From the NCBI GenBank assembly GCA_005889075.1, contig VBDQ01000024.1, forward strand, positions 6,522-70,521: DNA of 64,000 bases, in the 5' to 3' direction. The first letter of the stretch is position 1; every line of letters starts with the position of its first letter. This DNA comes from Chloroflexota bacterium. GTDB taxonomy: Bacteria > Chloroflexota > Limnocylindria > P2-11E. The position numbers and the translations under genes were made by a program. The notes under the pieces were generated by a model, which saw nothing but the letters and a program-made list of their open reading frames with translations, was not told the origin of the DNA and ran no database searches. Positions 457 to 26,912 of this stretch are shown piece after piece.

Positions 457-956
457 GCGTCGAGGTCGAGCCGCTCCGCACATTGACGGTCTTCGCCGGA
501 CTCTCCGACGGACAGCTCGAGCGGGTGGCGGCCGTGCTCAAGCGTCACGCGATCCCAGCCGGAATGGAGGTCCTCACCGAGGGCGAGAAAAGCACGTCGC
601 TCTTCGTCCTCGCTCGAGGCTCCGTTGGCACGAGCAAGCGACTCGGTCTCGCGGTCCGCGGACCGATGGATGCGGCGAAACAGAAGTTCCTCCTTCACAT
701 CAACGCGCCCCAGTTCTTCGGTGAGATCGGGCTGCTCACCGATCACGAGCGCTCGGCGACGATCACCGCGCAGACGGAGTGCGAAGTGCTGGAGCTTCGA
801 CGCGCGGACTTCGACCGACTCGCCCAGGACGATGTTTCCTTCGGCTATCAGGTGGTCCGGAATATCGCGGGCGTGCTCGCCGATCGGCTTCGCAACACCG
901 ATCACGACGTTCTGAAGCTGACGGCCGCCCTCAGCCTTTCGCTCGGCAACCGGTGA
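453..956 (+). CDS. cyclic nucleotide-binding domain protein
   Basis: 167-aa ORF with the cNMP-binding signature (FFGEIGLL...RSATITA). ATGA overlap with the upstream gene. Confidence 0.8.
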   Translation: MSVEVEPLRTLTVFAGLSDGQLERVAAVLKRHAIPAGMEVLTEGEKSTSLFVLARGSVGTSKRLGLAVRGPMDAAKQKFLLHINAPQFFGEIGLLTDHERSATITAQTECEVLELRRADFDRLAQDDVSFGYQVVRNIAGVLADRLRNTDHDVLKLTAALSLSLGNR

Positions 957-2695
957 CAAACCTTGGGGGGCTTTGCCCCCCAAGCCCCCTGCGCGTCGCG
1001 CTCCTCGCGGTTCTCGCGATGTTCGCCGGTGCCGGCACCGCGGCAGCGGACGAGGGCTGGGTCATCACGAGCTTCGCCGCCGACATCGCGATCCAGCCAG
1101 ATGCTTCGCTCCACATCGTCGAAGCGATCGACCTCGACTTTGGGGCACTGGAGCGGCACGGCATCTTCAGAGACATCCCCGTCCGCTACCACTACGACGG
1201 CACGCACCTGCGGGTGTATCGGCTGGACGTGCGGTCCGTCTCCGACGCGGCCGGTCGCGGCGTCTCCTACGAAACGAGCGATCTGGGCGGCTACCGCCGC
1301 ATCAAGATCGGCGACGCCAATAAGCTGGTCAGCGGTCACCAGAGCTACCGGATCACGTACGACGTCGCCGGCGCGATGAACGCGTTCGCCGATCACGACG
1401 AGCTCTTCTGGAACGTGAACGGAGGCACGTGGCCTGTTGCCTCACGCTCGGTGAGCGCGACCGTGCATGCCCCCGGCGGCATCGGCCAGGTCACGTGCTA
1501 CGAAGGGCTGGGCGGTTCGCGCGAGCCGTGCCGGATGACCTCGTCCTCGACGACGGCGACCTTCGCCTCGGCCCGTACCCTGCCGTCGGGCGAGGGGCTC
1601 ACGCTGGTGGCATCGCTTGCGAAGGGGACGGTCGCCGAGCCGAGCCCCATCCTTCAGCTCGACACGTCGGATCCCGGCGTATTCCTCGCGGCTGGCCCGA
1701 TGGTCCCCGCGGTCGCGGTATTCGTCCTGATCGCCGGCGTCGTGATGCTGTACTGGCGGTGGTTTGCGGTCGGCCGCGACCTGCGAGAGCGCCAGACGAT
1801 CGTCCCGGAGTACGAGCCTCCGGATCAGCGCCGGCCGGCAGAGCTCGGCCTGCTGGTCGACGAGAGCGCGGATACGAAGGACGTGACCGCCACCATCGTG
1901 GACCTCGCGGTCCGTGGCTATCTCACGATCTCCGAGCTTCCCGCACACGGCCTCTTCTCGAAGAAGGACTGGCTCCTAAAGAAGGCGGTGACGCCCAGCG
2001 GTCTCGCGCTCTACGAGCGGACCGTCTACGACGGTCTCTTCGAGGGCCGCGGCGAGGTGAAGGTCTCCGAGCTGAAACGCCAATTCGTCGACACGCTCCG
2101 CTCGGCCGAGACGGATCTGTATCGGGAGTCGGTGAGTCAGGGGTGGTTCTCTCGCCGTCCGGATACGACGCGCTGGATCTATCTCGGCCTTGGGTTCCTC
2201 TTGGTCTTCGCCGGCGTCGCGCTGATGTTCGTGCTGGGCGGCGCTCTGGGCGCCGGGCTGGTCGGGCTCGCGGTCGCCGCCGTCGGCGTGGTCGCGATGC
2301 CGCTCGCGAGGGTGATGCCGTCCAAGACCGCCGCCGGCGCCGAGCTTCTGCGTCGCGCGCTTGGGTTCCGCATGTACATGGAGGTCGCGGAGAAGGACCG
2401 CGCGAAGTTCGCCGAGCGGGAGAACATCTTCTCGGCGTACCTGCCGTACGCGATCGTGTTCGGCTGCGTCGACAAGTGGGCGCGCGCCTTCGCGGGCATC
2501 GACACGGCGCGGCAGACCGGCGCGTGGTACGTGGGTACGTCGCCCTTCAACGCGCTGCAGCTCTCGTCCTCGTTGCAGGGCTTCTCCGGCGATCTTGGCT
2601 CGGCGATCGCCGCGACGGCCGGCTCGAGCGGAGGAAGCGGCTTCAGCGGAGGCGCTGGGGGAGGCGGTGGTGGGGGCGGCGGCGGAAGCTGGTGA
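953..2695 (+). CDS. DUF2207 domain-containing membrane protein
   Basis: Lies within the 779..2695 ORF. The in-frame GTG at 953 forms a GTGA overlap with the upstream stop. Signal-like N-terminus, internal TM segments and a poly-Gly C-terminal tail (GGGGGGGGGGSW) are typical of DUF2207. The start is inferred. Confidence 0.7.
   Translation: MTNLGGLCPPSPLRVALLAVLAMFAGAGTAAADEGWVITSFAADIAIQPDASLHIVEAIDLDFGALERHGIFRDIPVRYHYDGTHLRVYRLDVRSVSDAAGRGVSYETSDLGGYRRIKIGDANKLVSGHQSYRITYDVAGAMNAFADHDELFWNVNGGTWPVASRSVSATVHAPGGIGQVTCYEGLGGSREPCRMTSSSTTATFASARTLPSGEGLTLVASLAKGTVAEPSPILQLDTSDPGVFLAAGPMVPAVAVFVLIAGVVMLYWRWFAVGRDLRERQTIVPEYEPPDQRRPAELGLLVDESADTKDVTATIVDLAVRGYLTISELPAHGLFSKKDWLLKKAVTPSGLALYERTVYDGLFEGRGEVKVSELKRQFVDTLRSAETDLYRESVSQGWFSRRPDTTRWIYLGLGFLLVFAGVALMFVLGGALGAGLVGLAVAAVGVVAMPLARVMPSKTAAGAELLRRALGFRMYMEVAEKDRAKFAERENIFSAYLPYAIVFGCVDKWARAFAGIDTARQTGAWYVGTSPFNALQLSSSLQGFSGDLGSAIAATAGSSGGSGFSGGAGGGGGGGGGGSW
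962..989 (-). repeat. G/C hairpin repeat element, copy A (reverse orientation)
   Basis: CTTGGGGGGC-TTT-GCCCCCCAAG plus a CCCCC flank. Perfect 10-bp stem. The reverse complement matches the copies at 8601 and 22167. Confidence 0.8.
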
Positions 2696-8227: not shown

Positions 8228-8558
8228 CCAGGCGATCGTCGCAGGCGACTTTGTCTTCTGCGCAGGCCAGATCGCGCTCGATCCGACGACCGGCGAGCTC
8301 GTCGGCGGCGATGACATCCGCGCGCAAACGAGGCGAGTGCTCGACAACCTCGCCGCGGTCCTCGTCGAGTCCGGATCCGGGCTTGACCGCGTGACGAAGA
8401 CGACCGTGTTCCTCACCGATCTCGCCGACTTCGTGGCGATGAACGAGGTCTATGGCGAGCGCTTTGCCTCGATCAAGCCCGCGCGCTCGACCGTCCCGGT
8501 CGGCGCGCTCCCACGCGGAGCGAAGGTCGAGATCGAGTGCATCGCGGTGACACGTTGA
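8172..8558 (+). CDS. ridA: RidA family reactive enamine/imine deaminase
   Basis: ATG at 8172 follows GGGGGAGAAG. PVGPYSQAI...GQIALDP...VFLTDL...R.TV.V..LP.GAKVEIE is typical of YjgF/RidA. The first 56 nt overlap the selA 3' tail in another frame. Confidence 0.85.
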   Translation: MDLRSTRTDRAPAPVGPYSQAIVAGDFVFCAGQIALDPTTGELVGGDDIRAQTRRVLDNLAAVLVESGSGLDRVTKTTVFLTDLADFVAMNEVYGERFASIKPARSTVPVGALPRGAKVEIECIAVTR

Positions 8559-8584
8559 GGGGGCTGTGCCCCCTCAAGACCCCC
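8555..8584 (-). repeat. G/C hairpin repeat element, copy B1 (reverse orientation, diverged)
   Basis: TTGAGGGGGC-TGT-GCCCCCTCAA plus a GACCCCC flank. The 10-bp stem contains the ridA stop codon. Confidence 0.7.
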
Positions 8585-8592
8585 GCGTGCCC

Positions 8593-10545
8593 GTGACCTC
8601 GGGGGCTGGGGGGCAGAGCCCCCCAACTCGGGTCATCGCGACTGCCGGCCATGTCGACCACGGAAAATCCACCCTCATCACCGCGCTGACGGGCATCGAT
8701 CCCGACCGCTTGCCCCAAGAGCGCGAGCGCGGGATGACGATCGACCTCGGGTTCGCGTGGCTGCGACTTCCCGACGGTACGGACGTCGGGATCGTCGATG
8801 TCCCGGGGCATCAGGACTTCATCCGCAACATGCTCGCCGGCGTCGGCGCGGTCGACGCAGTCTTGCTGGTCGTGGCGCTCGATGAGGGCGTCATGCCGCA
8901 AACGCGCGAGCATCTCGCGATCCTCGGCGTGCTGGGCGTCGAGCGGGGCGTCGTCGCACTCACCAAGCGCGACCTCGTCGACGATGAGTGGGCGGCGCTC
9001 GTGCGAGCCGACCTCAGCGCCGCGCTTCGGAAGACGCCGCTCGCGACCGCGCCCATGGTCGAAGTCTCCGCCAAGATGAAGCGGGGACTCGGCGATCTCG
9101 TCGCCGCTGTCGGCGGTGTACTCGCCGACGCGCCTGCCCGTCGGGACATCTCCCGACCACGCCTACCGATCGATCGCGTCTTCACGCTCGCCGGTTTCGG
9201 CACGATCGTGACCGGCACGCTCGTCGACGGGACCTTCACGGTCGGCGACGAAGCGGCGATCCTGCCGTCCGGCCGGCGCGCACGGATCCGCGGCATCCAG
9301 ACGCACCGGAAGGGCCGTGAATCAGCGCAGCCCGGTAGCCGGGTCGCGCTCAACCTCGCCGGCGTGGACAAGGACGAGCTTGAACGCGGCATGGTCGTCG
9401 TCCGTCCCGGGACGGTCGCGGCGACGTCGCTGATCGCCGCGAGGCTTTCGCTCCTTCCCTCGGCGTCCGATCCTCTCGTCCACGACGAGACGGTGAAGGT
9501 CCACGTGGGCACCGCGGAGGTGATGGCTCGCGCGTCTCTGCTCGAGACGAACGCGATCGCTCCAGGTGGATCGTCGTGGGCGCAATTGCGACTCGCGGCG
9601 CCCACGGCCGTGGCCGTGGGCGACCGGTTCGTGATCCGGCGGCCTTCACCAGCGGAGACCCTCGGCGGGGGCGAGATCGCGGACGCCTCTGGCGAACGGG
9701 TACGGCGGCGCGCCGACGCGCTCGCGTCGCTCGAGCGGCGCGCGGGGCCCAGCCCGACGTCGAGGCTGCTCGCGGTGCTCGACGTCCCGCGCGACGTCGC
9801 CGACGCGGCCGCGCGCAGCGGCCTTGCGGCCGCTGAGGCAGAGGCCGCGCTAGTCGAGCTCATCGCCGAAGGACTCGCGCTACGGCTCGGCGATGCCGTT
9901 CTGGCGCGGGACGCGTTCGCCTCGCTCGCCGTTCGCATCGAGCGTGCGCTCGCCGCGGCCCATCGACGCGCGCCGCTGCGTCCCGGGATGCCGCGCGAGG
10001 AGCTTCGCTCGTCGCTCGGACTCATGCCACGCCGTTTCTCCGCGCTCGTCGAAGCGCTCGCTCGGGAGGGACGGCTTGTCGAACGGGGCAGCGCCCTCGC
10101 GCTTCCGGGCCACGTCCCGAGCCTGACGCCGTCACAGGAGGCGGCCTGGTCGCGAGCTCGTGAGTCGCTCGCTCGCGATCCCCTGCTGCCACCTTCCCCG
10201 GCGAGCCTTCAGACGGACCACGGGATCGACGCTGAGGTCGTCGCCGCTCTCGCCGAACGCGGCGATCTCGTGCGCATCGGCACCGAGGCCGTCTTCCTGC
10301 CCGACGCGGTGGAGCGCTTCGCGCAGGTCGTCGTCGACGAGCTTGCGGCCCGCCGGACGATCACGGTGTCGAGAGCCCGCGACCTGACCGGCTCGAGCCG
10401 GAAGCACGTCCTTCCGTTGCTGCAGCTCCTCGACGATCAGGGCATCACGCGGAGGACAGGCGACGACCGCGTGCTCGTCATCACGCCGGAGCAGGCGGCT
10501 CGTCGCATCGCTACGCTCACGCGTCGGAAAGAGGTAGCTCGATGA
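8593..10545 (+). CDS. selB: selenocysteine-specific translation elongation factor
   Basis: [16 protein letters not shown]-domain start, DVPGH, and C-terminal winged-helix repeats. The start is ambiguous: GTG 8593 or ATG 8566, both in frame. Confidence 0.9.
8601..8627 (+). repeat. G/C hairpin repeat element, copy B2
   Basis: GGGGGCTGGGGGGCAGAGCCCCCCAAC, near-identical to 22167..22193. Confidence 0.8.
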
Positions 10546-20580: not shown

Positions 20581-22163
20581 GCGCCGACCTGCTCATGCGG
20601 GGCGGCACGGTCGTCGACGGCACGGGTGCACCCGAGCGCCGCGCCGACGTGCTGGTGCGCGATGGACGGATCGCGGCGGTCGGACGTGACCTCGCGGCCG
20701 ACGGCGCGCGGGTCATCGACGCCGCCGGACACGTGGTCGCGCCCGGCTTCATCGACATCCACTCGCACTCGGACGAGGCGATGTTCGTCAACGACGCCCT
20801 GGAGAGCGCGCTGCACATGGGAGTCACCCTGGTGGTGTGCGGGAACTGCGGCGGGTCGAGCGCGCCCGTGAGCGGCCTCGCCGAGGCCGAGCTCGATCGC
20901 GAGCTGGCGCGTCTCGCCGTGAAGCGGACCTGGTCGTCGTTTGGGGAGTACGCGGACGCTGTGGATCGCGTCAAACCCGCGATCAACGTGTGCTCGTTCG
21001 TCGGGCACGGCACGCTGCGCTCGTGCGTGATGGGAGCCGAGGCGCGCCCACCGACCGCAGAGGAGCTGGACCGGATGCGCACGCTCCTCGGACGTTCGAT
21101 GGACGAGGGTGCGATCGGCCTTGCCTCCGGGCTCATCTACCCGCCGAGCGCCTTCGCCGACACGGCGGAGCTTGCCTCACTCGGCAAAGTCGTGAAGGAA
21201 AAGGGCGGTCTCTATGCCAGCCACATCCGCAACGAGTCGACGAAGCTGCTCGAAGCCGTCGGGGAGAACATCGAGATCGGCCGGCGGTCTGGGGTGCGCG
21301 TCGAGCTCTCGCACCACAAGGCCGCGGGGCAGAAGAACTGGGGCCGCGTACGCGAGTCCACCGCGCTCATCGACGAGGCGCGTGGGTCAGGCGTCGACGT
21401 TACGGCCGATCAGTACCCGTACACGGCGTCGTCGACGGGCCTCGCGGTAACGATCCCGAACTGGGTGCACGAAGGCGGGACCGCCAGGATGTGCGAACGC
21501 CTCGCTGATCCTGCGGTGCGCGAGCGGATCCGCGGCGAAGAGGTCGAGACCGGCAGGGCCTGGGACCGCATCGTGATCGCGCGCGCTCGCCAGCATCCCG
21601 AATGGGCCGGGAAGAGCGTCGCCGACCTCGCGCGTTCCGCGGGACGCGACCCCCTCGAGTGGACCGCAGACGCGCTCATCGAGCACGAGGGGGCGGTCGA
21701 CATCGTTCACCACTCCATGAACGAGGACGACGTGCGTTATGTCATGGCGAAGCGCTGGGTCGCCATCGGAAGCGACTCGCGTGCGAACGCGCCCTACGGC
21801 CCGCTCTCGTTCGGCAAACCGCATCCGCGCTCCTACGGCACATTCGCGCGCGTGCTCGGAAAGTACGTGCGCGAGGAGAGGGTGCTCACGCTCGTCGACG
21901 CGGTCCGCAAGATGACCGGCCTGACTGCCTCGCGGCTCCGCCTTCGCGATCGCGGCATCGTCCGCGAAGGTGCGAGAGCGGACCTCGTCGTGTTCGATCC
22001 AGCGACGATCGTCGATACGGCGACGTACGACGATCCGCATCGCTATCCGGTCGGCATCGAGCAGGTCATCGTCAACGGCGCCGTTGCCCTCGATCGGGGC
22101 GAGACGACGCGCGAACGCGCCGGGCGGTTCCTCCGCCACGGCCGCGATCTAGGAGGTCGGTGA
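20577..22163 (+). CDS. D-aminoacylase (N-acyl-D-amino-acid deacylase) family amidohydrolase
   Basis: GTG at 20577 (GTGA overlap). GGTVVDGTG...DGRIAAVG...[12 protein letters not shown] is typical of the family. Confidence 0.85.
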
Positions 22164-23251
22164 ACCGGGGGCTGGGGGGCAAAGCCCCCCAAGTCGCGAT
22201 CCTGGCGGAGGGGCAGTTCGCGCCGGCCACGGCCAAGACCGCGATCGGCGTCCTGCGCTACGCGCCATATCCCGTCGTCGCGGTCGTCGACTCGACGAAG
22301 GCAGGGACCGATGCGGCGCGACACGTTGGCATCGGCGCCGGCGTGCCTGTGGTCGCGACCGTCGACGACGCGGTCGCGCTCGGCGCCGACGTCCTGCTCA
22401 TCGGGACCGCGGCCGCGGGCGGGCGCATCGCGGATTCGTACCGGCCATTTATCGCGCGGGCGCTCGAGCGGGGGTTGGCGGTATGGAACGGGCTGCACGA
22501 GCGCGTCCTCTCGGATCCGCACCTCGCGGAGGCCGCGAAGCGCGGCGGCGGCACGGTGCGTGAGCTCCGCGAGCCTCCGTCCGACCTTCCGATCGGCGGC
22601 CACCGTCGGCACCGCGATGGTGCGCGGGTCGTGCTCACCGTCGGAAGCGATGCGGCGGTCGGGAAGATGACCGCGTCGCTCGAGATCGTTCGCGCTCTGG
22701 AACGCGCCGGCGAGCGAGCGGCCTTCGTTGCGACGGGCCAGACCGGCATCGCGATCGCAGGCGAGGGCATCAGCGTCGACGCGGTCGTCGCCGACTTCGT
22801 TGCCGGCGCCACCGAGCGGATGGTGTGCGACGCCGCCGAGCGTGCCGACTGGGTCATCGTCGAAGGCCAGGGATCCTTGACCCATCCGGGGTTCTCTGGC
22901 GTGACGCTCGGGCTACTCCACGGGGCCGGGCCGGACGCCATGGTGCTGTGCCACGCGGCGTTCAGGCAGACCATGAAAGGTTATGAGCGCGAAGGCCTGC
23001 CCGTGCGCGATCTTCGCGATCTCGTGCGCATCTATGAGGACGCCGCGGAGTGGCGGCGGCCGCCGGGGTACCCGCGGGCGCGCGTGGTGGCGATCGCCCT
23101 CAATACGATCGGCATGAGTCCCGAGCATGCGCGCTCCGAAATCGGCGGCGCGACCCATGCGACCAAGCTTCCGGCCGCCGATCCGATCCGCGAAGGTGTC
23201 GCAGGGGCCGATCGTCTTGCGGAGGCGATCCGCGGCGCTGTCCCCGCGTGA
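22160..23251 (+). CDS. DUF1611 domain protein (DgcN-like)
   Basis: GTG at 22160 (GTGA overlap), the only canonical start before the conserved AILAEG...KTA.G.LRY N-terminus. P-loop-like [10 protein letters not shown]. Confidence 0.8.
22167..22193 (+). repeat. G/C hairpin repeat element, copy C
   Basis: GGGGGCTGGGGGGCAAAGCCCCCCAAG, 7 nt downstream of the GTG at 22160. Confidence 0.8.
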
Positions 23252-26084: not shown

Positions 26085-26912
26085 ATGCGCGCCGCCGACG
26101 CCGACCGGCCGATCGGCCTTTTCGACTCGGGCGTCGGAGGGCTTACGGTCCTCCGCGAGCTGCGCCGACAGCTTCCAGCGGAGTCCACGATCTATCTGGG
26201 CGACGAGGCGCGCATGCCCTACGGCCCCCGCGAGCCCGCGGAAGTGGTCGGCTTCACGCGCGAGGCGATGCGCTGGTTCGCCGGCCGCGATTGCAAGCTC
26301 GTGGTCATCGCCTGCAACACCGCCACTTCGGTGGCGCTCGAGGCGGTCCGTGACGAGAACGTCTTCCCGGTGATCGGCGTGGTACGCCCCGGAGCGGCCG
26401 CGGCGCTGACGGCGACGTCGCGGCGAGCGGTCGGCGTGCTCGCCACGGCGCTCACGGTGCGTTCGGGCGCGTACATCCGCGCGCTGCGCGATCTCGATCC
26501 GCTCGTTGACGTCGCTCAGCAGCCCTGCCCGAAGCTGGTGCCGCTCGTCGAGGCCGGCAAGGCCGGGAGCCCCGAGGCGCTAGCGGCCGTGCGCGAGTAC
26601 GTCGGACCATTGCTCACCGAGGGCGGCGTGGTCCGGCCGGTCGTCGACACGGTCCTCCTCGGCTGCACCCACTATCCCTTGCTCCGCCGGGAGATCGAGC
26701 GGGTGGCCGGCCGCGACGTACGCGTCGTCGACTCGGCCACGACGACCGCACTTGCGGTCCGCGAGGTCCTCGCATCGCACCGACTCACCCGAGCCGGCGG
26801 CACCGCGGTGCATGAGGTGTTCGCGACCGGTCCCGCGGAGCGCTTCCGCGAGATCGCCCGTGCGATCTTCAAGGAGGACCCGCCCGACGTGCGCGAGACG
26901 CGGCTCCCGTGA
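26085..26912 (+). CDS. murI: glutamate racemase
   Basis: GLFDSGVGGLTVL, IACNTA and GCTHYP motifs. Confidence 0.9.
   Translation: MRAADADRPIGLFDSGVGGLTVLRELRRQLPAESTIYLGDEARMPYGPREPAEVVGFTREAMRWFAGRDCKLVVIACNTATSVALEAVRDENVFPVIGVVRPGAAAALTATSRRAVGVLATALTVRSGAYIRALRDLDPLVDVAQQPCPKLVPLVEAGKAGSPEALAAVREYVGPLLTEGGVVRPVVDTVLLGCTHYPLLRREIERVAGRDVRVVDSATTTALAVREVLASHRLTRAGGTAVHEVFATGPAERFREIARAIFKEDPPDVRETRLP

What the first reader, a model, noticed from the sequence alone, without database searches (positions are those of the whole stretch)
8555..8627. Family of about 28-nt G/C hairpin repeats (REP-like), here as a head-to-head pair
Four copies share the consensus GGGGGCT(T)GGGGGGC-AAA-GCCCCCCAAG. 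The + orientation copies are at 8601-8627 and 22167-22193 (2 differences, by eye); the reverse orientation copies are at 962-989 and 8555-8584 (diverged). Each gives an 8-10 bp nearly all-G:C stem with a 3-nt loop. The flanking G5 run could pair alternatively with the C6 arm. Between ridA and selB two copies face each other about 20 nt apart, like a BIME/REP doublet. This is the only dispersed short repeat I found in the window, apart from the inverted ftsH 5' duplication, and no annotated gene explains it.
Basis: seen in the sequence. Interest (0 to 1): 0.6.

Follow-up and report, generated by a model that had tools for sequence, protein, structure and literature searches.

The report
G/C hairpin repeats that colonise genes
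A soil Chloroflexota genome carries about 63 copies of a 27-36-base G/C hairpin repeat of the REP type, with no matching transposase gene found; most copies sit at gene junctions or in frame inside genes, where they are probably translated as short Gly/Pro/Ala loops.

Summary
All four window copies exist as described. The assembly (a 'Candidatus Limnocylindria' MAG, 2.83 Mb, 67.6% GC) holds about 63 copies in two subfamilies. A is GGGGG-CY-GGGGGGC-RRM-GCCCCCC-RA. B is GGGGG-TCTTGA-GGGGGC-NNN-GCCCCC-TCAA.

The family is multi-copy in only 10 of 22 species of this genus. A sample of 401 genomes of the class showed no other multi-copy carrier.

It behaves as a mobile REP-type repeat:
- Each genome has its own consensus, and the outer stem pairs covary.
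- Sister genomes differ sharply. G012 has at least 52 copies and G019 has 2, with about 97% identical flanks. Nine of ten sampled G012 sites are empty in G019 and in an outgroup.

It is not extragenic. About 46 of 63 copies overlap predicted ORFs, at first codons, last codons or internal loops. CarB carries a clean in-frame 36-nt insert that 16 relatives lack. Filled-minus-empty length differences are always multiples of 3 but vary from -6 to +30 per copy.

No RAYT/IS200 transposase gene was found in any of the 22 genomes. Reverse transcriptase and TnpB do not track copy number. No target-site duplication was detected. The mobilising mechanism is unknown.

Verdict: a new variant of a known kind (REP/RPE-like), of moderate interest.

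The parts
962..989 (-). Subfamily A copy, read on the + strand as CTTGGGGGGC-TTT-GCCCCCCAAG-CCCCC. It lies 5 nt after the TGA of the cNMP-binding gene. It most likely sits inside codons 3-12 of the DUF2207 gene, in the n-region of the signal peptide.
   Evidence: The orthologue in G001 reads GTGA-CC-TTC-GCG (M T F A R A P L V...). G000 reads M T [NLGGLCPPSP] L R V A L L. The only canonical start after the element (ATG 1019) would truncate the signal peptide.
953..956 (+). GTGA start/stop overlap: the stop of the cNMP-binding gene and the GTG start of the DUF2207 gene.
8555..8584 (-). Subfamily B copy, read on the + strand as TTGAGGGGGC-TGT-GCCCCCTCAA-GA-CCCCC. The TGA in its 5' arm (8556-8558) is the ridA stop codon.
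   Evidence: (stop:-4). ridA orthologues end ...IECIAVRR(NV)* without the element.
8601..8627 (+). Subfamily A copy (GGGGG-CT-GGGGGGC-AGA-GCCCCCC-AAC) between ridA and selB. It is translated only if selB starts at GTG 8593. It is 5'-untranslated if selB starts at ATC 8635.
   Evidence: The spacer is 25 nt and empty in 14 genus genomes. One copy is present at the same place in G017, G009 and G012, and a complex insert in G008.
8555..8627 (.). Inverted (-,+) doublet of REPIN/BIME type, with the C5 and G5 tails facing each other across 16 nt.
   Evidence: folds as one hairpin, -55.2 kcal/mol on the + strand and -56.9 on the - strand, z = -4.2 and -4.5; 7 of 8 adjacent pairs in three genomes have this orientation.
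22167..22193 (+). Subfamily A copy inside codons 3-11 of the DUF1611 gene. It is translated as ..RGLGGKAPQ.. between the GTG start and the conserved VAILAEG.
   Evidence: Many orthologues read GGAGG-N3-ATGA-AG-GTCGCGATC (M K V A I L A E G). G000 has 11 in-frame codons there and no canonical start after the element.
22160..22163 (+). GTGA start/stop overlap: the stop of the amidohydrolase gene and the start of the DUF1611 gene. A GGAGG Shine-Dalgarno sequence lies at 22152-22156.

Best explanation
This is a lineage-specific family of non-autonomous mobile palindromic repeats of the REP type. The unit is about 27-36 nt: an unpaired C-GGGGG tag, a 2-3 nt linker, an 8-10 bp almost pure G:C stem with a purine-rich 3-nt loop, and a short RA tail.

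Shown here:
- It has amplified in separate bursts in some species of one Limnocylindria genus.
- New copies appear at sites that are empty in a sister genome and in an outgroup.
- Copies persist where they do least harm. These places are 0-9 nt after stop codons at operon junctions, in the first or last codons of ORFs next to overlapping stop/start signals, and in frame inside large conserved proteins.
- Subfamily A is free of stop codons in all six frames. It encodes mainly Gly, Pro and Ala.

Inferred:
- Copies inside ORFs are translated as short flexible loops.
- Copying goes through a single-stranded hairpin that is recognised in trans by an enzyme not detectable as a Y1/RAYT transposase. 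I give this about 0.45. Alternatively it goes through an imprecise repair or template-switch process, at about 0.25.
- Arrival usually removes 0-33 nt of target, and only in-frame outcomes survive.
- Effects on mRNA, such as 3'-end protection or stricter translational coupling, are possible by-products. They are not the reason the family exists.
For: Copy number and specificity:
- About 63 copies, 50 of subfamily A and 13 of B.
- Reversed-pattern controls give 0.

Distribution:
- Multi-copy in 10 of 22 genus genomes.
- Multi-copy in none of the other roughly 380 class genomes sampled across 65 genera.
- Carriers are scattered on a CarB tree.

Consensus and structure:
- Per-genome consensus differs: CT..AA in G000, CC..GA in G012 and G013.
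- Stem pairs -8/8 and -9/9 covary and are 93-100% paired in 111 distinct copies.

Gain events:
- G012 versus sister G019 (flanks 92.5-99.5% identical) and outgroup G004: 9 of 10 sampled sites are empty in both, and G019 and G004 have the same length at 7 of those 9 sites.
- One clean 30-nt insertion after codon 2.
- One nested copy (fragment 3).

Coding location:
- By my own gene caller: 15 internal, 12 C-terminal, 19 N-terminal, 14 intergenic and 3 partial.
- CarB has a clean 36-nt in-frame insert in G000. Opposite-orientation copies sit in the same loop in G012 and G013. Sixteen genomes are empty there, and E. coli CarB aligns with a 12-residue gap.
- The DUF1611 gene has in-frame copies in both orientations in two species, plus a decayed in-frame copy in a third.
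- All nine filled-minus-empty length differences are multiples of 3.

Position:
- 23 of 63 copies lie 0-9 nt from a called stop.
- 64% lie within 45 nt of a stop, against 7% for random positions.

Coding neutrality:
- 46 of 50 subfamily A copies are stop-free in six frames, against 45% of random 27-mers.
- Encoded residues are Gly 27%, Pro 26% and Ala 12%.

Precedent: intragenic REPs, REPs less than 20 bp after stops, and REP families without a dedicated transposase are all described (PMC3733652).
Against: - No mobilising enzyme was found. PF01797 is 0 of 22, reverse transcriptase 1 of 22, and TnpB 6 of 22 without correlation. MAGs are incomplete and may lose plasmids or insertion sequences.
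- There is no target-site duplication.
- Net length change per single copy varies from -6 to +30 nt. This is not what precise transposition gives.
- Translation of the embedded copies is inferred from frames and homologues. It was not observed.
- Gene calls come from my own simple caller, so N-terminal assignments are uncertain. Thirteen of 19 have an alternative downstream start.
- This genus seems to use near-cognate starts, which blurs start assignment further.
- Recurrent hits at the same site may be chance saturation rather than targeting.
- Public sequencing runs could not be queried, so there is no check against raw reads.
Confidence: 0.78

Rival explanations
1. The hairpins are host regulatory signals kept by selection at each site. 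They could be U-tract-less terminators or attenuators, mRNA 3'-end stabilisers, sites that enforce translational coupling, or a protein-binding site. On this view they are not mobile DNA.
For: - There is strong proximity to stop codons and a bias to co-directional junctions: 39 co-directional, 5 divergent and 2 convergent.
- The hairpins are very stable.
- N-terminal copies are mostly in the C5-sense orientation, 15 of 19.
- REPs are known to stabilise upstream mRNA (general knowledge; PMC3733652 discusses RNA roles).
Against: - Overall, both orientations are used about equally: 17 against 22 at co-directional junctions.
- By my gene caller, 15 copies lie more than 60 nt from either end of an ORF; those inside recognisable conserved enzymes include CarB, GltB, Mfd and Lhr.
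- Sister species with about 97% identical flanks lack them at 9 of 10 sites.
- Twelve of 22 congeners have none.
- Near-identical sequence rather than mere structure, together with a genome-specific consensus, points to copying.
- No T-run follows the hairpins.
Confidence: 0.07
2. The repeats are not moved by a dedicated transposase. They are written in by an imprecise host process. One option is capture of an abundant hairpin oligonucleotide during end-joining repair. Another is microhomology-mediated template switching to an existing copy during replication. Either would replace a short stretch of target.
For: - Net length change per single copy varies: -3, +21, +12, +9, -6, +18, +30.
- Flanking bases next to the element are often changed while sequence further out is about 97% identical.
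- There is no target-site duplication.
- There is no Y1 transposase, and reverse transcriptase and TnpB do not track copy number.
- One ancestral target resembles the element. In fragment 3 the empty site reads GGCGCGGAGGCGGG.
Against: - The tag-stem-loop-tail architecture is strict, the loop is strand-asymmetric, and doublets have a fixed (-,+) geometry. These features suggest recognition by a specific protein.
- The on/off pattern between sister species is abrupt, 52 copies against 2. That fits gain or loss of an activity.
- Clean insertions exist: 30 nt at L136 and 36 nt in CarB.
- No such mechanism is documented for REPs, to my knowledge.
Confidence: 0.2
3. The repeats are a conserved protein-coding motif, a Gly/Pro-rich module, whose nucleotide palindrome is incidental.
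For: Many copies are inside ORFs and encode similar G-G-x-x-P-P peptides.
Against: - All three frames and both strands are used, giving different peptides: [33 protein letters not shown].
- Fourteen copies are intergenic.
- Homologues lack the segment.
- Conservation is at the DNA level and includes the non-coding strand features.
Confidence: 0.01

Closest known systems
REP sequences (repetitive extragenic palindromes), including the GTAG- and CGTC-tagged super-families (Di Nocera et al. 2013, PMC3733652)
   Same: - The unit is a 20-40 nt imperfect palindrome with an unpaired tag at one end and a short tail at the other.
- It is dispersed, with tens of copies.
- The consensus is species-specific.
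- Inverted dimers occur.
- Copies usually lie less than 20 nt after the upstream stop.
- Occasional copies inside ORFs encode extra residues.
- CGTC REPs also lack a dedicated transposase.
   Different: - The tag is GGGGG, not GTAG or CGTC. CGTC occurs in 0 of 32 G000 copies and 6 of 21 G013 copies.
- The loop is 3 nt and the stem is almost pure G:C.
- Most copies overlap predicted ORFs, about 46 of 63. In P. fluorescens only 14 of 1,067 do (PMC3116915).
- Convergent junctions are avoided, with 2 of 46 copies there.
- Copy number is modest.
REPIN-RAYT systems (Bertels and Rainey 2011, PMC3116915)
   Same: - Inverted doublets can fold into one long hairpin.
- The family amplifies within a genome.
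- The hairpin-plus-5'-tag logic recalls IS200/IS605 ends.
   Different: - No RAYT (PF01797) is present in any of the 22 genus genomes.
- Most copies are singlets. Only 3 doublets occur among 63 copies in G000.
- Distribution among close relatives is patchy rather than long-term vertical persistence.
Rickettsia palindromic elements (RPEs; Ogata et al. 2000, as summarised in PMC10969869 and PMC3733652)
   Same: - Palindromic selfish DNA is inserted in frame into unrelated housekeeping genes.
- It is apparently tolerated because it codes for surface-compatible peptides.
- The short RPE-4 and RPE-6 are themselves REP-type units.
   Different: - RPE-1-type elements are about 100-150 bp and encode a conserved peptide in one frame.
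- Here the unit is 27-36 nt, is used in all six frames, and is from a free-living soil Chloroflexota.
- No sequence similarity was tested or is expected.
MIRUs of Mycobacterium tuberculosis (Supply et al. 1997; cited from my own knowledge)
   Same: Dispersed repeats sit at intercistronic junctions of operons. Their small reading frames overlap the stop and start codons of the flanking genes.
   Different: - MIRUs are 46-100 bp direct, often tandem, repeats without a dominant hairpin.
- They have a fixed orientation relative to transcription.

Membership tests
REP (repetitive extragenic palindromes) | Short (20-40 nt) imperfect palindrome forming a stable stem-loop | tested here: met
   Stem of 8-10 bp, 3-nt loop, -20 to -23.5 kcal/mol. 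Pairing is 93-100% at positions -2 to -9, with covariation at -8/8 and -9/9.
REP (repetitive extragenic palindromes) | Many dispersed copies per genome, above chance | tested here: met
   About 63 copies on 40 or more contigs. Shuffles expect 0.06 per 64 kb. Reversed-pattern control gives 0.
REP (repetitive extragenic palindromes) | Extragenic location | tested here: not met
   Only 14 of 63 copies are fully intergenic by my gene calls, and 15 lie more than 60 nt inside ORFs. The CarB and DUF1611 cases are confirmed against orthologues. N-terminal assignments are uncertain.
REP (repetitive extragenic palindromes) | Unpaired GTAG or CGTC tag at one end | tested here: not met
   The tag is C-GGGGG. 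On the opposite end CGTC occurs in 0 of 32 (G000), 4 of 24 (G012) and 6 of 21 (G013) copies. NGTC occurs in 16 of 21 G013 copies.
REPIN-RAYT system | A RAYT (Y1 HUH transposase, PF01797) gene in the genome, typically flanked by the repeats | tested here: not met
   Six-frame HMM search found 0 of 22 genus genomes, while controls were positive in 6 of 14 reference genomes. Caveat: the MAGs are 60-92% complete.
REPIN-RAYT system | Inverted doublets as the predominant, better conserved unit | tested here: inconclusive
   Seven of 8 adjacent pairs are inverted (-,+) and the window doublet folds as one hairpin. Only 3 doublets occur among 63 copies in G000. Conservation of doublets against singlets was not compared.
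Rickettsia palindromic elements (RPE) | In-frame insertion into unrelated protein-coding genes, absent from orthologues | tested here: met
   CarB +36 nt, with 16 genus genomes empty at the site and a 12-residue gap against E. coli CarB. DUF1611. Nine of 9 length differences are multiples of 3.
Rickettsia palindromic elements (RPE) | About 100-150 bp unit encoding a conserved peptide in one frame; rickettsial lineage | tested here: not met
   The unit is 27-36 nt. All frames and both strands are used. The host is Chloroflexota.
MITE | Terminal inverted repeats plus a target-site duplication of fixed length | tested here: not met
   There is no flank-repeat signal beyond shuffled pairings. Twenty-seven of 500 shuffles reach the observed mean. 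The net insert length is not constant.
Intrinsic (Rho-independent) terminator | G+C-rich hairpin followed by a U-run, located after genes | tested here: not met
   No T-run follows any window copy. Copies occur inside ORFs and in both orientations.

The most novel reading that the evidence does not exclude
The family is spread by a mechanism that does not use a RAYT/IS200 transposase and is inherently imprecise: a 'patch replacement' that swaps 0-33 nt of target for the hairpin. The activity has been switched on and off between sister species. G012 has at least 52 copies and G019 has 2, with about 97% identical flanks. That contrast is a natural experiment that could identify what mobilises transposase-less REPs, an open question since the CGTC REPs were described.
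Probability: 0.3. Interest if true: 0.75.

Novelty: new variant of a known kind. Interest (0 to 1): 0.5.

Why it matters
REP-type repeats are common, but how those without a RAYT spread is unknown. Their invasion of coding sequence is documented in only a few lineages.

This case shows a minimal hairpin that is almost neutral for coding. It has no stop in six frames and encodes only loop-friendly residues. It has entered essential genes such as carB, gltB, mfd and the end of rplM in a compact genome that is about 90% coding.

The genus has almost no other mobile elements and contains very close species pairs with and without the burst. That makes the mobilising activity findable by comparative genomics.

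There is also a practical point for annotation. Gene starts, stops and short 'insertions' in these MAGs will be misjudged unless the repeat is recognised.

Tried and rejected
- Rfam scan of the window found only three tRNAs.
- RAYT/IS200 TnpA (PF01797) was absent from the own genome and from all 22 genus genomes.
- Reverse transcriptase (PF00078) was present in 1 of 22 and TnpB (PF07282) in 6 of 22. Neither correlated with copy number.
- The target-site duplication test was not significant.
- The position-weight profile of the flanks showed no target-site consensus beyond a C before the G-run.
- Membership of the CGTC-tagged REPs was considered and not supported for G000.
- SECIS or another selB-related role was considered because of the neighbourhood. 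It was rejected because the family is genome-wide and absent from most congeners that have selB.
- A G-quadruplex was considered and rejected because there are only two G-runs per copy.
- An IS-end or composite-element origin was considered. No pair of copies flanks a single gene in inverted orientation, and no similarity longer than about 55 nt was found between copies.
- The window-based frame caller gave too many undecided flanks. The gene-call-based tables were used instead.
- PDB alignments for Lhr and GltB were uninformative about a clean insertion.
Full report
**Observation**

- The plus-strand copies at 8601-8627 and 22167-22193 differ at two positions.
- The copy at 962-989 is the same unit on the other strand.
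- The copy at 8555-8584 belongs to a second subfamily.
- The palindromic core occurs three times in the window against 0.06 expected.

The window lies on contig C68 of a 2.83-Mb, 144-contig assembly with 67.6% G+C and an estimated 87% completeness. Record titles of the nearest relatives name it a soil MAG of Chloroflexota, class 'Candidatus Limnocylindria'.

**Census and anatomy**

The assembly holds about 63 copies.
- Subfamily A has 50 copies: C-GGGGG, a 2-3 nt linker (CT, CTT, CC, AT), GGGGGGC, a 3-nt loop, GCCCCCC, then AA or GA.
- Subfamily B has 13 copies: GGGGG-TCTTGA-GGGGGC-NNN-GCCCCC-TCAA. Its arms carry TGA on both strands.

The loop is purine-rich on the G-run strand (AGA, GGA, GAA, AGC), so the unit is strand-asymmetric.

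In 111 distinct copies from three genomes, the six inner pairs are nearly invariant G:C. The two outer pairs covary: GC/AT/TA/CG and TA/CG/GC/AT, 93-100% paired.

Single hairpins fold at -20 to -23.5 kcal/mol. The ridA-selB doublet can fold as one long hairpin at -55 kcal/mol (z = -4.2).

Adjacent copies are almost always in the (-,+) arrangement, with the C5 and G5 tails facing each other, in 7 of 8 pairs.

Rfam has nothing at these sites.

**Distribution**

A strict pattern finds the family in 10 of 22 species of the same genus, with 2 to 52 matches each.

Among 401 genomes sampled across 65 genera of the class, no genome outside the genus has more than one match. Three genomes of a sister genus have one consensus copy each. 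A reversed-pattern control gives zero everywhere.

On a CarB tree the carriers are scattered:
- G013 (37 matches) is sister to G003 (0).
- G000 groups with G018 and G001 (0).
- G012 (52) is sister to G019 (2).
- G010 (17) is sister to G007 (0).

This is a single-gene tree with several weak nodes.

Each genome has its own consensus: CT...AA in G000 and CC...GA in G012 and G013. This is the signature of amplification within each genome.

**Evidence of gain**

I compared ten G012 element sites with its sister G019 and with an outgroup, G004. G012-G019 flank identity is 92.5-99.5%.

Nine sites are empty in both G019 and G004, and at seven of them the two have the same length. The empty state is therefore ancestral and G012 gained the copies. 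One site is filled in both G012 and G019 and is decaying in G019.

The nine length differences are -3, +21, +12, +24, +9, +54, -6, +18 and +30 nt. All are multiples of three; the chance of that is about 5e-5 if frame did not matter. They are not constant.
- One case is a clean 30-nt insertion after the second codon of a gene.
- In the others the bases next to the element are also changed and 3-33 nt of target are gone.
- One site holds a copy nested inside another.

No target-site duplication is detectable. The flanks show no consensus beyond a C before the G-run.

**Location relative to genes**

I wrote a simple codon-usage gene caller. It gave 2,636 genes and 90.6% coding.
- 23 of 63 copies begin or end 0-9 nt from a called stop.
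- 64% lie within 45 nt of a stop, against 7% of random positions and 39% of random non-core-coding positions.
- Junction copies are mostly between co-directional genes: 39, against 5 divergent and 2 convergent.
- Both orientations occur at those junctions, 17 against 22.

More importantly, only 14 copies are fully intergenic. Of the rest, 19 are in the first 20 codons of the called ORF, 12 in the last 20, 15 further inside and 3 partly overlapping. Thirteen of the N-terminal cases have an alternative downstream start, so they may be 5'-untranslated.

**Proof cases**

1. DUF1611 gene (window 22160-23251).
   - Many orthologues read GGAGG-N3-ATGA-AG-GTCGCGATC (M K V A I L A E G).
   - G000 has GTGA, the element, then GTCGCGATC. 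That is 11 in-frame codons with no canonical start after the element.
   - Another species has a copy in the opposite orientation at the same place, also in frame.
   - A third species has a decayed in-frame copy.

2. CarB.
   - Sixteen genus genomes read IV-E(N/H/S)G(R/N/K/T)-VW(V/M)LEVNPR.
   - G000 has a clean 36-nt insert (GCTGGGGGGAATTTGGGGGGCGAAGCCCCTCAAACT) between the Gly and Arg codons.
   - G012 and G013 carry opposite-orientation copies in the same loop.
   - E. coli CarB aligns with a 12-residue gap there.

3. DUF2207 gene (window 953-2695).
   - G001 reads GTGA-CC-TTC-GCG (M T F A R A P L V...).
   - G000 reads M T [NLGGLCPPSP] L R V A L L. This places the 962-989 copy in the n-region of the signal peptide.

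4. Other in-frame internal copies lie in GltB, Mfd, an Lhr-type helicase, an ECF sigma factor, an amidohydrolase and others. They use all three frames and both strands.

5. In G012 the end of rplM is extended through a copy that also supplies a new stop.

In the window, the TGA inside the arm of the 8555 copy is the ridA stop.

The status of the 8601 copy depends on where selB starts (see 'Side observations' below).

**Why the copies are tolerated**

Forty-six of 50 subfamily A copies have no stop codon in any of the six frames, against 45% of random 27-mers from this genome. The encoded residues are 27% Gly, 26% Pro and 12% Ala. These are loop-friendly.

Subfamily B, which carries TGA in its arms, is found mainly at junctions.

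I infer, but have not shown, that the internal copies are translated and sit in surface loops. The CarB site aligns between the segment ...NVQFAVKNN and the conserved EVNPR motif of E. coli CarB.

**Mobilising activity**

- The Y1/RAYT family (PF01797) is absent from all 22 genus genomes, while the control genomes respond.
- Reverse transcriptase is present in one genome.
- TnpB is present in six genomes, with no relation to copy number.

The MAGs are incomplete and may lack plasmids. Even so, a single-copy chromosomal RAYT would not be missed in ten carriers.

The varying net insert length and the altered flanks point to an imprecise step. I cannot say whether that step belongs to an unknown enzyme or to host repair or replication.

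**Comparison with known systems**

Di Nocera et al. (PMC3733652) describe:
- REPs with an unpaired tag, a stem-loop and a tail;
- REPs usually less than 20 bp after the upstream stop, sometimes supplying the stop codon;
- REPs sometimes inside ORFs, notably in Opitutus terrae and Rickettsia conorii, where the short RPE-4 and RPE-6 are REP units;
- CGTC REPs with no dedicated transposase.

Bertels and Rainey (PMC3116915) define REPINs as inverted REP doublets mobilised by RAYTs. They report only 14 of 1,067 repeats overlapping genes in P. fluorescens.

The present family shares the REP architecture and behaviour. It differs in its GGGGG tag, its almost pure G:C stem with a 3-nt loop, the absence of any RAYT in the genus, the majority of copies overlapping ORFs, its avoidance of convergent junctions, and the target loss that accompanies insertion.

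I therefore file it as a new variant of the REP/RPE kind. It is not a member of the REPIN-RAYT system.

**Limits**

- Gene calls are my own.
- Translation is inferred.
- The CarB tree is a single-gene tree.
- Recurrent insertions at the same loop or junction could reflect saturation of the few tolerant sites rather than targeting.

**Side observations**

- selB has no in-frame ATG, GTG or TTG near its conserved [12 protein letters not shown] start in most genus genomes.
- The homologous start position of the DUF2207 gene is ATG, GTG, CTG, ACG or ATC in different species.
- Together with earlier first-reader notes on CTG and ATA starts in this genome, this suggests frequent near-cognate initiation at stop/start junctions in this genus.

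Noticed in passing
window 8559-8640, and loci L002-L024 (ridA-selB junction): In most of the 22 genus genomes, selB has no in-frame ATG, GTG or TTG within about 40 codons upstream of the conserved ...(R)[12 protein letters not shown]. The 25-nt ridA-selB spacer is conserved in length. A near-cognate start is possible, for example the conserved ATC in GTC-ATC-GCG-ACC (window 8635-8637). Termination-reinitiation is another possibility.
   Followed up: partly
loci L191-L207 (start of the DUF2207 gene; window 953): The homologous start-codon position of the DUF2207 gene is occupied by ATG (G006, G007, G009), GTG (G004), CTG (G015), ACG (G012) and ATC (G014) in different species. This suggests regular use of near-cognate start codons in this genus.
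   Followed up: partly
G000 contigs C41:48381, C77:9655, C124:7200 and C54:18023 (outside the window); locus L026:2457: A second, different G-rich repeat occurs in several copies and in another Limnocylindria MAG. It reads roughly GGGGCAGGGGCCCAGGGGGCRGGGGCCCCC followed by ...GCGGAGCGGAGCG.
   Followed up: no
whole genus (G000-G021): The genus is very poor in classic mobile-element genes. No Y1 transposase was found in 22 genomes, RVT_1 reverse transcriptase in 1 of 22, and TnpB in 6 of 22.
   Followed up: partly
G147:C86:6065, G159:C219:836 and G192:C80:103479 (sister genus g15): Three genomes of a neighbouring genus each hold a single consensus-perfect copy of the repeat. These could be rare transfers, the seeds of new bursts, or bin contamination.
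   Followed up: no
G000 contig C3:26103-27956 (outside the window): An MsbA-like ABC transporter appears split into two ORFs at 26810/26820. This may be a frameshift or an assembly error. The C-terminal tail of the second ORF runs through a repeat copy that ends in a TGATG stop/start overlap with the next ABC gene.
   Followed up: no
loci L178 and L184 against L131 (G019 and G004 against G012): At one G012 insertion site, the 'empty' ancestral sequence is itself a small covarying hairpin: GGACG-GCGAA-CGTCC in G019 and GAGCG-GCGA-CGCTC in G004. At another site (L133) the G004 sequence looks like a decayed copy. Old, eroded copies may therefore exist in genomes that scored as free of the family.
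   Followed up: no
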